A stretch of 64,000 bases of DNA from an uncultured Hyphomicrobiales bacterium. Lineage in GTDB: Bacteria > Pseudomonadota > Alphaproteobacteria > Rhizobiales > Xanthobacteraceae. The notes under the pieces are model-generated. The model saw only the letters and a list, made by a program, of their open reading frames with translations. It searched no databases and was not told where the DNA came from. The stretch covers positions 7,418 through 71,417 of the forward strand of contig CAYWCE010000004.1 of assembly GCA_964456755.1 (NCBI GenBank), in the 5' to 3' direction. Positions 10,714-16,026 of the stretch are shown piece after piece. Positions within the stretch are counted from its first letter, which is position 1. Each line of letters starts with the position of its first letter. A program made the position numbers and the translations under genes.

Positions 10714-11835
<1,122 letters not shown>

Positions 11836-11866
11836 GCCGCCGCGCCCGACGCACGTTCCAACATCG

Positions 11867-11896
11867 TCCGCCCCGGTTCGCCGGGGCGGATTTTTT
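11867..11896 (+). terminator. Rho-independent terminator of the liv operon
   Basis: TCCGCCCCGG-TTCG-CCGGGGCGGA perfect 10-bp stem followed by T6. Confidence 0.92.
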
Positions 11897-12015
11897 GTGC
11901 CCGGACCCGCGGCGTGGCGCATGGCACGTCCTTGCATCCGAAACGTCTGGCCGCGGGCGCGCGCAAGCGCCCGTATTCTTTGCGGCGCCGGGTGCGCCGT
12001 CTTGCGTTTCGTTCC

Positions 12016-12356
12016 CGTCCCTGCGAAGGGACGCGCGGAACGCCGGGCTCTCAGCCTGCCCGCGGCCTCGTGTGGGGATTGCGAAAACCACACGAGATTG
12101 CAGTCACCACGGACCGCCGATTTCTCCGGCGTTCCGCGCGCGGTGTTTGAGGCTTGCTCTGCGACAACCCCGGAGGAGAGACACCCCAGCGACGGGGCTG
12201 CCCTTGGTATCCTCCGCTGGTGACCCACGGCCCGTGGGCCGGATCGCCGCAGCTTGGGCCTCCGCTGCGCGGGCGTACGTCCTGCGCCCGTGCTGCGGCC
12301 ACCGCATCCCGCCCCGCGTCCGCGACGCTCGAGACGCCCCTTGCTCGGGGCGGGAT
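12016..12356 (-). ncRNA. Large multi-stem non-coding element (candidate structured RNA or intergenic repeat)
   Basis: Perfect inverted repeats: 12032-12046/12126-12140 (15 bp), nested 12067-12075/12088-12096 (9 bp), 12016-12022/12027-12033, 12171-12177/12210-12216, 12224-12229/12233-12238, 12246-12253/12292-12299, 12306-12315/12347-12356 (10 bp). No credible ORF. A TATATT -10-like box lies just upstream on the - strand; strand is inferred from this. Confidence 0.5.
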
Positions 12357-12475
12357 CGCAAGGAATATAATCCTGTATTGTGGCGGCAGTTTGGCGGCGG
12401 CCCTTGTTGCAGCATCCGGGCGCCAGTAGCGTTCGAATCACACCTCGTGCTCCGCCCAGCAGTCGGGGACTGTCG

Positions 12476-13120
12476 TTGACCGGCAATACACTTGCAAATG
12501 CCGTCTCCCGCTTTGGGGCCGCTCTGAAGCCGAAGCTGGCAAACCCCGCGATCGTCGGCGCGCCCGAAGACCAGTTGCGGGGGCCGCTGGAAGCGCTGGT
12601 GCGCGAATTGGCCTTGCTGGCGGGACTGCCGGCCGGCGCGGTGTCGCTGGTCGGAGAAACGACGCAGACCGACCTGAAGACCCGGCCCGATTACGCCGTC
12701 ACGGTCGGCAAGGCGCTGGTCGGCTTCGTCGAGGTCAAGGCGCCGGGCAAGGGCGCCGACCCGCGCAAGTTCACCGACGAGCACGACAAGGAGCAGTGGA
12801 AGAAGCTCCAGTCGCTGCCCAACCTGCTCTACACCGACGGCAACGGATTCAGCCTGTGGCGCGACGGCAAGATCGAAGGCGCGGTGGTCCATCTCGAAGG
12901 CAATGTCGAAAGCGCAGGCGCGAAGCTTGCTGCGCCCGCGACGCTGCTGCCGCTCCTCACCGATTTTCTGCGCTGGGCGCCGATCCCGCCGAAGAGCGCA
13001 GGGCTTCGCCGCGGCCGACGTGACGGTGGCCAATCCGGCGGTCGGCACCTGCACGTTCCTGCTCGGCGTGCTGCGCCGCATCGCGCAAACCGTGGAGCAT
13101 GACCAGGGCGCGGGCGCCAA
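12476..13120 (+). pseudogene. 5' remnant of a type ISP/IIG restriction-modification gene (PD-(D/E)xK nuclease domain plus out-of-frame, mutated MTase motif I)
   Basis: TTG start at 12476 after GGGGAC; RPDY...GFVEVKAP nuclease motif and LPNLLYTDG. After WAPIPPKSA (~13000) another frame reads VANPAVGTCTFLLGVL, a degenerate DPAxGTGTFL. Similarity ends ~13120; the nuclease frame stops at 13102. Confidence 0.75.
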
Positions 13121-13142
13121 ATGGTCCGCGATCAGCACGAGC

Positions 13143-13171
13143 TTGCTTGTCTCCTTGGTGTTTGGTATTGA
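13143..13171 (+). promoter_or_regulatory. Putative sigma70 promoter of the retron
   Basis: TTGCTT (13143-13148), 17 nt, then TATTGA (13166-13171) preceded by TGn. Predicted +1 (~13178) coincides with the start of the msr arm. Confidence 0.5.
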
Positions 13172-13178
13172 AACTCAT

Positions 13179-13317
13179 AGGCTTACAGGCAGATTTGTTG
13201 CCGCGCTTCGCGGTATATGAACGAATGTCAGGGAGCGATGCTTCCCGACGATCCTTAATGCGCTATGTATCAACACGATATGATGCGCATGACACGCGTA
13301 GGAGTGCCTGTAAGCCT
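13179..13317 (+). ncRNA. Retron msr-msd non-coding RNA (Ec67/Eco2-like)
   Basis: Perfect 13-bp inverted repeat AGGCTTACAGGCA (13179-13191) / TGCCTGTAAGCCT (13305-13317); unpaired G13192 opposite G13304 (branching-G geometry); hairpins at 13199-13215, 13227-13249 and 13252-13303; ends 23 nt before the RT start. Confidence 0.9.
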
Positions 13318-13340
13318 TTATTCTTCAACAGGAACTTCTT

Positions 13341-15056
13341 TTGTCGATACTTAAGAATTTGAAGAGCGCATCATCACTCAAAGATGTTGCTACAATTCTG
13401 GGATACAAGCCGAGTGCGCTCGCTTACATCATCTACAAGCTTCCGTCTGACAAGAAGTACACCAAGTTCAAGATTCCTAAGAACGGCGGCGGTGAACGAG
13501 AGATTTGCGCGCCGATAAAGTCGTTGAAAATTTTGCAGCGACGCCTAGCCAACGTGCTGTATGCGTGCAGGCATGAAATCGAACGCGAACACGGGCGACG
13601 GCCGCTGTCGCACGGTTTCCGCAAAGACTTGTCCATCATCACCAATGCACGCCGGCACAAGCGCCGCCGCTACGTGCTGAATCTTGATCTTCAGGACTTC
13701 TTCCCGACGTTCAATTTCGGCCGGGTGAGGGGCTTTTTCATCCAGAACAACAGCTTCAAGTTGAACGACAAGGTAGCGACCATCATTGCGCAGATTGCCT
13801 GTTTCGAAAACGCGCTTCCGCAAGGCAGTCCCTGTTCGCCGGTCATCGCCGACCTCATCGCGCATCTGCTTGATGTCCGGCTGGCCCAGATCTCCAAGAA
13901 AAATCAGCTCACCTATTCGCGCTATGCCGACGATCTTACGTTTTCAACCAGCCGGCGGGATTTCCCAGCGCTGGTGGGCGCGCCATCTGCGCCCGGAAGC
14001 CCCAAATGGGCACCGGGACACAACCTGAGCAAAACGATTCAGAGCGCGGGTTTCAAGATCAACTCGGTCAAGACCAGAATGCAATTCAGGATGAGCCGAC
14101 AACTCGTTACAGGTCTTACCGTGAACGCCAAAGTCAATATCCGTCCAGAGTATTACCGGCGCGCGCGCGCCATGTGCCACACTCTCTTTAGGACCGGCGC
14201 TTATCATAGGCACATGCCAGCCGGAGAGGCCGGAAAAGAGGCCAAGCCGGCATTGATTACTTCACTGGGACCGCTTGAAGGGACCCTAAGCCACATCCAT
14301 CATATTAAGGACTCGATCGACGACCGCAACCAGCTCGAAAAGAGAAAGGATCCGACTGCATTTCGTAGGCTGTATGCGCGCTTTCTCAAATTCCGGTATT
14401 TCGTTTGCCTTGAGCGCCCGCTAATAGTATGCGAAGGCAAGACGGACAACGTTTATTTCAAATATGCACTCCGCAAGCTTCCAGCCTTTCACCCCAAGCT
14501 TGGTTCGTGGAAAGGGCAGACCTTCAGCAGTGCTGTATCCTTTTTCAATTACGATAACCAAGCTCACCGCATTCTGGAACTGGGCGGCGGCACGTCAGAC
14601 CTGCGGTATTTCTTCATCAAGAACCGCTATCCGCAGGACATCCATCAGTTCGAGCACCGCCCACTGAAACACCCTATCATCGTGCTCATCGACAACGACA
14701 ACGGTGCGAAAGAAATCTTCAAGGTCATAAAAACGAATTATTGTATTGTAATTGACCATCAATCGACCGACCCTTTCTTTCACATCGCCGACAACCTGTA
14801 TCTTGTTAAGACGCCGGAACAGGGCGCAGACGGCATCTCTAGGATTGAAAGCTTCTTTGACCCAAAGCTCCTCCAAACCAAGCTTGACGGAAAGACATTT
14901 AATCCCGACAAGGATCATGGCGCTGACGACGAATACGGTAAGTATGTCTTTGCGGAAAAAGTCGTCCGCGCGAACGCCGATAAGGTCGATTTTTCAGGAT
15001 TCACGCCGCTGTTCAAGCGCATTGCGGCAGTCATAGACCACTATAAGTCGACGTGA
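13341..15056 (+). CDS. Retron Ec67-family reverse transcriptase fused to a C-terminal TOPRIM nuclease (type I-C retron)
   Basis: RT motifs KNGGGEREICAP, TNARRH (retron NAxxH), LDLQDFFPT, LPQGSPCSP, YSRYADDLTFS, LVTGLTVN (retron VTG); TOPRIM motifs IVCEGKTD and LIDND; 571 aa; visibly AT-richer than flanks. Confidence 0.95.
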   Translation: MSILKNLKSASSLKDVATILGYKPSALAYIIYKLPSDKKYTKFKIPKNGGGEREICAPIKSLKILQRRLANVLYACRHEIEREHGRRPLSHGFRKDLSIITNARRHKRRRYVLNLDLQDFFPTFNFGRVRGFFIQNNSFKLNDKVATIIAQIACFENALPQGSPCSPVIADLIAHLLDVRLAQISKKNQLTYSRYADDLTFSTSRRDFPALVGAPSAPGSPKWAPGHNLSKTIQSAGFKINSVKTRMQFRMSRQLVTGLTVNAKVNIRPEYYRRARAMCHTLFRTGAYHRHMPAGEAGKEAKPALITSLGPLEGTLSHIHHIKDSIDDRNQLEKRKDPTAFRRLYARFLKFRYFVCLERPLIVCEGKTDNVYFKYALRKLPAFHPKLGSWKGQTFSSAVSFFNYDNQAHRILELGGGTSDLRYFFIKNRYPQDIHQFEHRPLKHPIIVLIDNDNGAKEIFKVIKTNYCIVIDHQSTDPFFHIADNLYLVKTPEQGADGISRIESFFDPKLLQTKLDGKTFNPDKDHGADDEYGKYVFAEKVVRANADKVDFSGFTPLFKRIAAVIDHYKST

Positions 15057-15589
15057 GCGTGACCGCGTTGGCCTCGGTATTTTTTCGCCCCATAGGTCGG
15101 CCGCGCCTGCCGAAGGGAAGCGCGCCGTTCATTCCGGCCAAGGGCGAAATCCCCGGAGCGCCCGAGCCGCTGCCCGACACGATGGACTACGATCCGGCGG
15201 CACGGCGGCTGAACATCGGCAAGGGCTTTGTCGAGAACGTCACGCCGGAAATGTGGGCCTACGAAGTCTCCGGCAAGAACGTGCTGCGGCAGTGGTTCAG
15301 CTATCGCAAGCGCGACCGCAGCCGCCCGATCATCGGCGACCGCCGCCCGCCGTCGCCACTCGACAAGATTCAGCCGGACCATTGGCTGCCGGAATACACC
15401 TCAGACCTGCTCGATCTTTTGCACGTGCTCGGGCGCCTGATCGCGCTGGAGGGCAGGCAGGCCGATCTGCTGGAGAGCATCTGTGCAGGTCCGCTGCTGG
15501 CCGCCGAGGAACTGCGCAACGCTGGCGCGCTGACGCACAGCGAGGAAAAGGCGGCCAAAGCGAAACGCAAGAGCAAAAGCAAGGCGTAA
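15053..15589 (+). pseudogene. 3' remnant (C-terminal domain) of the type ISP/IIG R-M gene, open from a GTG overlapping the RT stop
   Basis: From ~15100 high-GC coding resumes: PRLPKG...MDYDPAARRLNIGKGFVENVTPEMWAYEVSGKNVLRQWFSYRK...WLPEYTSDLLDLLHVL, resembling the type ISP C-terminal WxY/FxVxGxxVLxxWxxYR signature. Confidence 0.72.
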
Positions 15590-15680
15590 GGGCCGGTGGA
15601 TAGCTATGGGGACTTCGGCCCGCCGCGCTCGCGGCCGCCGCAATCCGCGTTAAAGATTCGCACGATTCGCAATTGGAAAC

Positions 15681-15980
15681 GTGCGACCGATGTCCTCCCC
15701 CCGCCAGGGCGACCTGTTCCGCAGCGACGACAAGCCGGAACTTTACGACGACGAGTCGCAGACGCCGGTCTATGAAGCCGACCCCGACGAGGTGCGCGCC
15801 GAACTGCACCGCATTCTGGCCGAAGCCCGCGCCGCGTCCACGATGCCTTGGGACGAACGCCGCGTCTCGCTCTACCGCACGATCTTCCCGCAGATGACCG
15901 CCGCGCTGCCGGAGGAGGAGGGCGCCCAACTGCGGTTTGCGTTCATGACCGAGATGGAGCGGCTGGACAAGGCGGCATAG
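15681..15980 (+). CDS. Small acidic helical hypothetical protein
   Basis: 99 aa (alternative ATG at 15690) with host-like codon usage: DPDEVRAELHRILAEARAASTMPW...YRTIFPQMT..LPEEEGAQLRFAF. Confidence 0.7.
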   Translation: MRPMSSPRQGDLFRSDDKPELYDDESQTPVYEADPDEVRAELHRILAEARAASTMPWDERRVSLYRTIFPQMTAALPEEEGAQLRFAFMTEMERLDKAA

Positions 15981-16026
15981 GCCGCGCGGGTCAGTTTCCC
16001 AACGCGCCTTGCACGCCAACCTGCCC

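What the first reader, a model, noticed from the sequence alone, without database searches (positions are those of the whole stretch)
13143..13317. Complete retron msr-msd RNA with predicted branch point and ~77-nt msDNA
Seen: a perfect 13-bp terminal inverted repeat (13179-13191/13305-13317), G13192 unpaired opposite G13304, a hairpin at 13199-13215, and a promoter-like site placing +1 at the first arm. The junction motifs AGGCAGATTTGTTG, ATCCTT and AGGAGTGCCTG match my recollection of the E. coli Ec67 ncRNA, while the arms and hairpin interiors differ but still pair. Inference by analogy: 2'-5' priming at G13192 gives msDNA complementary to 13303-13227, TCCTACGCGTGTCATGCGCATCATATCGTGTTGATACATAGCGCATTAAGGATCGTCGGGAAGCATCGCTCCCTGAC, with two hairpins. 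Standard annotation would likely miss this RNA, and it is a candidate new retron for ssDNA production or editing.
Basis: partly seen in the sequence, partly recalled or inferred. Interest (0 to 1): 0.7.

Follow-up and report, generated by a model that had tools for sequence, protein, structure and literature searches.

The report
Ec67-type retron template RNA gene

Summary
Confirmed, and ordinary. Window 13179-13317 (+) has a perfect 13-bp a1/a2 inverted repeat. G13192 lies opposite G13304, and a 7-bp msr hairpin lies at 13199-13215. The stretch ends 23 nt before a 571-aa RT-Toprim ORF (13341-15056). That ORF scores 730 bits on PADLOC RT-Toprim_I-C and E 1e-114 against the solved Ec67/Eco2 protein.

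A covariance model built from 63 other RT-Toprim loci, without the window, hits exactly 13179-13317 on the + strand (95.3 bits, E 7e-25). In the 64-sequence alignment the branch G and the GAGT before a2 are invariant. Compensatory changes occur in 12 of 13 arm pairs and 6 of 7 hairpin pairs.

The rule "template from the A of GAGT back to the G of AAUG" gives 67 nt on an Ec67-like E. coli locus (L083), the published Ec67 length. It gives 77 nt here; the family range is 59-85.

A promoter (TTG, then TGnTA) is positionally conserved across the family and puts +1 at about 13178.

Rfam has no model that detects this RNA.

The cassette is a ~50% GC island inside remnants of a type IIG restriction-modification gene.

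This scan has already confirmed Ec67-type retron RNAs on other DNA. msDNA synthesis itself is inferred, not shown.

The parts
13143..13171 (+). Promoter-like site: -35 TTGCTT (13143-13148), 17-nt spacer, extended -10 TGGTATTGA (13163-13171). Predicted +1 at about 13177-13180.
   Evidence: In 64 loci, TTG lies 49-46 nt before the branch G in 37 of them, and TGnTA lies 26-23 nt before it in 35. Elsewhere in the upstream 150 nt the rate is about 0.2-1.5 per position. Homology with other cassettes starts at the -35 box. The strict sigma-70 scan does not call it.
13179..13191 (+). a1 arm of the terminal inverted repeat
   Evidence: Perfect 13-bp complement of 13305-13317. 12 of 13 pairs show compensatory changes across 64 loci.
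13192..13192 (+). Predicted branching guanosine (2'-OH primer), equivalent to Eco2 rG15
   Evidence: Invariant in 64 of 64 sequences, as is the preceding A. Aligns with rG15 of Eco2 (PMC12405507).
13199..13215 (+). msr stem-loop (7 bp, CUU loop), the RT recognition hairpin
   Evidence: 97% of cells paired. 6 of 7 pairs have changes on both sides. This helix was not used to pick the sequences.
13224..13227 (+). AAUG stop motif. G13227 is the predicted last templated base; U13226 is equivalent to the flipped-out rU51 of Eco2.
   Evidence: G is at least 90% conserved. AAUG is present in 33 of 64 sequences and NNNG in 60 of 64. Eco2 numbering was verified on L089 and in PMC12405507.
13227..13303 (+). 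msd template. The predicted msDNA is the reverse complement (window:13227-13303:-), 77 nt, starting with dT templated by A13303.
   Evidence: The same rule gives 67 nt for the Ec67-like locus L083, equal to the published Ec67 length. Family range 59-85, median 72. DNA fold.
13301..13304 (+). Invariant GAGU. A13303 is the first template base and G13304 faces the branch G.
   Evidence: GAGT in 64 of 64 sequences.
13305..13317 (+). a2 arm
   Evidence: See a1.
13341..15056 (+). RT-Toprim fusion gene (571 aa, TTG start, AGGAA 13331-13335 as ribosome-binding site). Motifs: NAxxH 102-106, YADD 195-198 (13923-13934), VTG 256-258, EGKTD 365-369 (14433-14447), DND 451-453 (14691-14699).
   Evidence: PADLOC RT-Toprim_I-C 730 bits. 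PDB Ec67 9lm3/9i2f E 1e-114 over residues 4-569. 39% identity to the Ec67-like RT of L083. The motifs are invariant in 25 homologues. F43 and R180 align with Eco2 F46 and R184, which contact rU51 and rG15.

Best explanation
This is the msr-msd gene of an intact type I-C (Ec67/Retron-Eco2-like) retron.

1. Transcription starts from the cassette's own promoter at about 13178 and runs through the ncRNA into the RT-Toprim gene.
2. The 13-bp a1/a2 duplex and the msr hairpin (13199-13215) position the RT.
3. The 2'-OH of G13192 primes cDNA synthesis on A13303.
4. Synthesis runs to G13227 and stops where U13226 would flip out onto F43. The product is a 77-nt msDNA joined 2'-5' to a roughly 59-nt msr RNA, with about 11 bp of RNA-DNA hybrid left after RNase H.
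5. By analogy with Eco2, msDNA and RT-Toprim assemble into a self-inhibited trimer. A phage nuclease that degrades the msDNA frees the Toprim RNase, which stops translation and aborts infection.

Shown here: sequence, structure, family membership, conserved contacts, intact ORF. Inferred: every biochemical step.
For: - Independent covariance model: 95.3 bits, E 7e-25, full length, + strand only; single copy in the genome.
- Invariant A-G and GAGU. Compensatory changes in 12 of 13 arm pairs and 6 of 7 hairpin pairs. Covariation score 0.588 against 0.238 in shuffles and at most 0.16 in slid controls.
- The same model finds the canonical Eco2 RNA (84 bits) and further I-C loci outside its seed, but nothing next to RT-only matches of other retron types.
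- RT-Toprim is intact, with all catalytic motifs and the RNA-contact residues.
- The endpoint rule reproduces the published 67-nt Ec67 msDNA.
- The window and Eco2 RNAs fold alike.
- Mechanism taken from PMC12405507 and PMC12916289.
Against: - There are no expression or msDNA data.
- The genome is a 74%-complete metagenome bin.
- The promoter fails a strict sigma-70 scan.
- The arm pairing statistic is partly circular, because loci were trimmed by their inverted repeat.
- The msd interior is not alignable, and the DNA fold is not significant (z -1.28).
- The RT is only 39% identical to an Ec67-like E. coli RT (L083), so trigger and target may differ.
- The exact msDNA 3' end could shift by processing.
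Confidence: 0.9

Rival explanations
1. A decayed retron. The RNA gene looks intact, but the cassette, which sits inside a broken restriction-modification gene, is no longer expressed or active.
For: The surrounding type IIG gene survives only as out-of-frame fragments. The promoter is sub-consensus. The -10 hexamer matches TATAAT at only 3 of 6 positions.
Against: The 571-aa ORF is uninterrupted, and every invariant residue of 25 homologues is kept. The ncRNA scores higher than canonical Eco2 on the family model (95.3 against 84 bits). The promoter boxes sit at the family's conserved positions.
Confidence: 0.07
2. A real retron RNA whose msDNA ends differ from the prediction: termination elsewhere or exonuclease trimming, giving a product that is not 77 nt.
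For: The endpoints are inferred from one solved relative. The branch-to-stop spacing is 35 nt here against 37 in Eco2. Other retrons' msDNAs are known to be trimmed after synthesis (general knowledge).
Against: The AAUG motif and F43 are conserved. The rule gives the correct 67 nt on an Ec67-like locus.
Confidence: 0.2
3. Not a retron RNA: the inverted repeat is a terminator or attenuator, a REP or MITE-type repeat, or the ends of a mobile element.
For: It is a strong hairpin-forming inverted repeat at the edge of a foreign island.
Against: Full-length, strand-specific match to a model of 63 RNAs that all precede RT-Toprim genes. No T-run follows it. It is a single copy in the genome. Invariant unpaired G facing G.
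Confidence: 0.01

Closest known systems
Retron-Eco2 (Ec67) of E. coli, type I-C1. ncRNA at L089:338-468 (E. coli S10); structures 9LM3, 9I2F, 9I2G, 9S1F.
   Same: - Order: promoter, msr-msd, then RT-Toprim.
- 13-bp a1/a2 arms.
- A-G-AUUUGUUG after a1 and AGGAGUGCCUG into a2.
- A single msr hairpin and the AAUG stop motif.
- A UCCU...AGGA closing stem in the msd.
- Toprim motifs EGxxD and DxD.
- RNA-contact residues F46/F43 and R184/R180.
   Different: - The RT is only 39% identical to the Ec67-like E. coli RT of L083; identity to canonical Eco2 was not computed (E 1e-114 over residues 4-569).
- Arm sequences and hairpin interiors differ but still pair.
- The branch-to-stop spacing is 35 nt, not 37.
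- The msd is 10 nt longer (77 against 67), with an unrelated interior.
- The host is a 65-70% GC bacterium rather than a P2-like E. coli prophage slot.
Structured RNA family 'IC' of type I-C1/I-C2 retrons (Mestre et al. 2020, PMC7736814)
   Same: An ncRNA directly upstream of an RT fused to a C-terminal Toprim domain. The window's closest relatives are alphaproteobacterial members: RT up to 76% identical in metagenomes and 66% in L001.
   Different: Nothing qualitative. I did not have the published IC model and rebuilt one (R1) from 63 loci.
Rfam RNA families (release 15)
   Same: None matched.
   Different: No Rfam family matches 11000-16000 at this site at E <= 1, so routine RNA annotation does not label it.

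Membership tests
Retron type I-C (Ec67/Eco2) msr-msd | RT with C-terminal Toprim fusion encoded directly downstream on the same strand | tested here: met
   ORF 13341-15056. PADLOC RT-Toprim_I-C 730 bits over the full length. PDB Ec67 E 1e-114 over residues 4-569.
Retron type I-C (Ec67/Eco2) msr-msd | Terminal inverted repeats a1/a2 enclosing the RNA | tested here: met
   13 of 13 bp perfect. Compensatory changes in 12 of 13 pairs across 64 loci. The pairing percentage is partly by construction.
Retron type I-C (Ec67/Eco2) msr-msd | Conserved unpaired branching G right after a1, facing a G before a2 | tested here: met
   G13192 and G13304. The A-G and GAGU columns are invariant in 64 of 64 sequences. 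Aligns with Eco2 rG15.
Retron type I-C (Ec67/Eco2) msr-msd | msr stem-loop recognised by the RT | tested here: met
   13199-13215. 97% paired, and 6 of 7 pairs change on both sides.
Retron type I-C (Ec67/Eco2) msr-msd | Match to a family covariance model built without the candidate | tested here: met
   R1: 95.3 bits, E 7e-25, model positions 1-134. Canonical Eco2 scores 84 bits.
Retron type I-C (Ec67/Eco2) msr-msd | Stop motif AAUG with the aromatic RT residue that stacks on the flipped U | tested here: met
   13224-13227. F43 aligns with Eco2 F46 and is invariant in 25 homologues.
Retron type I-C (Ec67/Eco2) msr-msd | Catalytic motifs: RT NAxxH, YADD, VTG; Toprim EGxxD and DxD (I-C1/I-C3 signature rather than the DxE of I-C2) | tested here: met
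   N102-H106, Y195-D198, V256-G258, E365-D369, D451-D453. Signatures from PMC7736814.
Retron type I-C (Ec67/Eco2) msr-msd | Production of branched msDNA with a 2'-5' link | not testable with these tools
   Needs expression and debranching assays.
Retron type I-C (Ec67/Eco2) msr-msd | Anti-phage activity dependent on RT, ncRNA and Toprim | not testable with these tools
   Needs plaque assays in a laboratory host.

The most novel reading that the evidence does not exclude
The 1.95-kb cassette (promoter to RT stop, about 13140-15090) moved as a discrete module and replaced the core of a type IIG restriction-modification gene. The surviving C-terminal specificity fragment (15053-15589) has a GTG that overlaps the RT stop. 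It would then be co-translated and would act with the retron as an added sensor or partner. That would be a retron/R-M hybrid not described so far.
Probability: 0.04. Interest if true: 0.55.

Novelty: new member of a known kind. Interest (0 to 1): 0.2.

Why it matters
It adds one well-delimited natural retron from a high-GC environmental bacterium, with branch point, template limits and promoter all mapped. The template is 10 nt longer than Ec67's, which could serve as one more scaffold for ssDNA production or editing screens. The 64-locus alignment and model also give a usable detector for type I-C retron RNAs, which Rfam lacks. They also show that the promoter and the AAUG stop site are conserved family features. 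None of this changes what is known about retrons.

Tried and rejected
- Rfam scan of 11000-16000: only a weak suhB/mmgR-like terminator match at 11835-11904, nothing at the site.
- Strict sigma-70 and terminator scan: no + strand promoter and no terminator after the RT.
- A lower msr stem (13193-13198 with 13221-13226), suggested by the minimum-energy fold: only 64% paired in the family, with little covariation. Not adopted.
- Full-text search for the Ec67 motif in papers: no hits.
- The first attempts to reach Ec67 DNA failed or gave only relatives. The canonical locus was reached through E. coli S10.
- Target-site duplications or terminal repeats at the cassette borders: none convincing.
- Type IIG fragments next to other RT-Toprim loci: none in the other fetched loci.
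- The same cassette or an intact IIG gene in 30 relatives at DNA level: not found in those searched.

Full report
**Observation.**
- Window 13179-13191 is the exact reverse complement of 13305-13317, a 13-bp repeat (recovered independently).
- G13192 follows the first arm and faces G13304.
- 13199-13215 forms a 7-bp hairpin with a CUU loop.
- The 139-nt RNA folds at -61.4 kcal/mol, z -5.25, and none of 200 shuffles did as well.

**Surroundings.**
- GC falls from 65-70% to 47-55% between about 13140 and 15090, then returns.
- An uninterrupted 571-aa ORF starts 23 nt after the second arm (13341-15056; TTG start, AGGAA five bases upstream).
- The ORF matches PADLOC RT-Toprim_I-C over its full length (730 bits).
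- It matches the solved Retron Ec67 protein (9lm3, 9i2f) at E 1e-114 over residues 4-569.
- NAxxH, YADD, VTG, EGKTD and DND are present, and all are invariant in 25 homologues.
- The island sits inside fragments of a type IIG restriction-modification gene: 12380-13220 matches profile positions 5-156 and 335-394, and 15053-15589 matches positions 927-1052.
- Outside the island lie liv transporter genes upstream and DsbD-like, peptidase S58 and DAO genes downstream.

**Family evidence.**
- A scan of one genome per species returned 80 loci encoding relatives of the RT.
- In nearly all full-length RT-Toprim loci, an inverted repeat of 9-16 bp spanning 120-148 nt ends 15-35 nt before the RT start. 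The first arm is always followed by G-A-U-U-U and the second is always preceded by G-A-G-U.
- I aligned the window with 61 such loci and two E. coli loci (A2). The A-G at the branch and the GAGU are invariant.
- Across the family, 12 of 13 arm pairs and 6 of 7 hairpin pairs keep pairing through changes on both sides.
- For a 26-pair test structure (these two helices plus the candidate lower stem rejected below), the covariation score is 0.588. Shuffles give 0.238 and slid controls give at most 0.16.
- The 100% pairing of the arms is partly by construction, because I trimmed the loci by their repeat. The hairpin played no part in the selection and is 97% paired.
- A lower msr stem seen in the minimum-energy fold is not supported (64% paired).

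**Independent test.**
- A covariance model built from the 63 other sequences (A4, R1) was run over the whole window with filters off. It hits 13179-13317 on the + strand at 95.3 bits, E 7e-25, covering model positions 1-134.
- The next best match is the same place on the - strand at 18 bits.
- It is the only copy in the 2.9-Mb, 74%-complete genome.
- The model also finds RNAs in loci outside its seed, including a different I-C retron in a same-genus genome. It finds nothing beside RT-only matches of other retron types.

**Comparison with Ec67.**
- I reached the canonical element through E. coli S10, the strain used for the cryo-EM work (PMC12405507).
- Its RT (L089:506-2266) scores 1325 bits over 586 residues against 9i2f. 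Its ncRNA (L089:338-468) scores 84 bits on R1.
- The two RNAs fold alike, including a UCCU/AGGA stem that explains the AUCCUU motif.
- Counting from the published rG15, the Eco2 sequence puts A49-A50-U51-G52 on the AAUG motif. This agrees with the structure, in which rG52 templates the last nucleotide and rU51 flips onto F46.
- The window's AAUG is 13224-13227.
- F43 and R180 of its RT align with F46 and R184.
- Taking the template from the A of GAGU back to the G of AAUG gives 67 nt for the Ec67-like locus L083, the published Ec67 length. It gives 77 nt for the window. The family range is 59-85, with median 72.

**Promoter.**
- The strict scan calls nothing on the + strand.
- Across 64 loci, TTG lies 49-46 nt before the branch G in 37, and TGnTA lies 26-23 nt before it in 35. 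Both are far above background.
- The window has TTGCTT at 13143-13148 and TGGTATTGA at 13163-13171 with a 17-nt spacer, so +1 falls at about 13178, next to the first arm.
- Homology with other cassettes begins at the -35 box, which is also where host-like composition ends.

**Mechanism.**
- By homology with Eco2 (PMC12405507, PMC12916289), the RT primes on the 2'-OH of G13192 and copies 13303 down to 13227.
- The msDNA then holds RT-Toprim in an inactive trimer until a phage nuclease destroys it and frees the Toprim RNase.
- All of this is inferred; nothing here shows msDNA.

**Verdict.**
- The element is a new member of a large known family: 4746 related proteins at E <= 1e-20 among the 8000 candidates scored, and a published 'IC' RNA family.
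- This scan has confirmed Ec67-type retron RNAs on other DNA before.
- The unusual point is the position inside a broken type IIG gene. That arrangement was seen in none of the other fetched RT-Toprim loci, and neither the cassette nor these type IIG fragments were found in the 30 relatives searched. It is the subject of a separate note.

Noticed in passing
window 12380-13220 and 15053-15589: Fragments of one type IIG restriction-modification gene flank the retron: profile positions 5-156, 335-394 and 927-1052 of 1086. The retron therefore occupies the place of the missing methyltransferase core. No such fragments lie within the fetched flanks of any of the other RT-Toprim loci held at that point (L001-L083).
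   Followed up: partly
window 15053-15056: A GTG overlaps the RT stop (GTGA) and opens the 178-aa frame that carries the type IIG C-terminal domain. A short T-run (15079-15085) after a weak hairpin lies just inside it.
   Followed up: no
window 13616-13628 and 14946-14958: A second perfect 13-nt inverted repeat lies inside the RT gene, with arms 1317 nt apart. About 0.05 such pairs are expected in 2.5 kb, so it may be chance.
   Followed up: no
L086:992-1120 (same-genus genome G017): A different type I-C retron RNA (89.4 bits) with other arm sequences. Its RT is about 70% identical at DNA level over a short stretch. Two genomes of the genus therefore carry independently acquired I-C retrons.
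   Followed up: partly
L031:1578-1716: In Sphingomonas silueang the ncRNA lies about 1.3 kb upstream of where the RT match begins (residue 30 onward). This suggests an insertion between the RNA gene and the RT.
   Followed up: no
L081 (E. coli): An Ec67-family retron distinct from canonical Ec67 is present, nearly identical, in 511 of 5426 complete E. coli genomes, including many O25b:H4-ST131 strains. Canonical-type Ec67 is present in only about 15.
   Followed up: no
window 11835-11904: A weak Rfam suhB/mmgR match (20.7 bits, E 0.62) is a GC-rich hairpin with a T-run after the liv binding-protein gene. It is most likely just its terminator.
   Followed up: no
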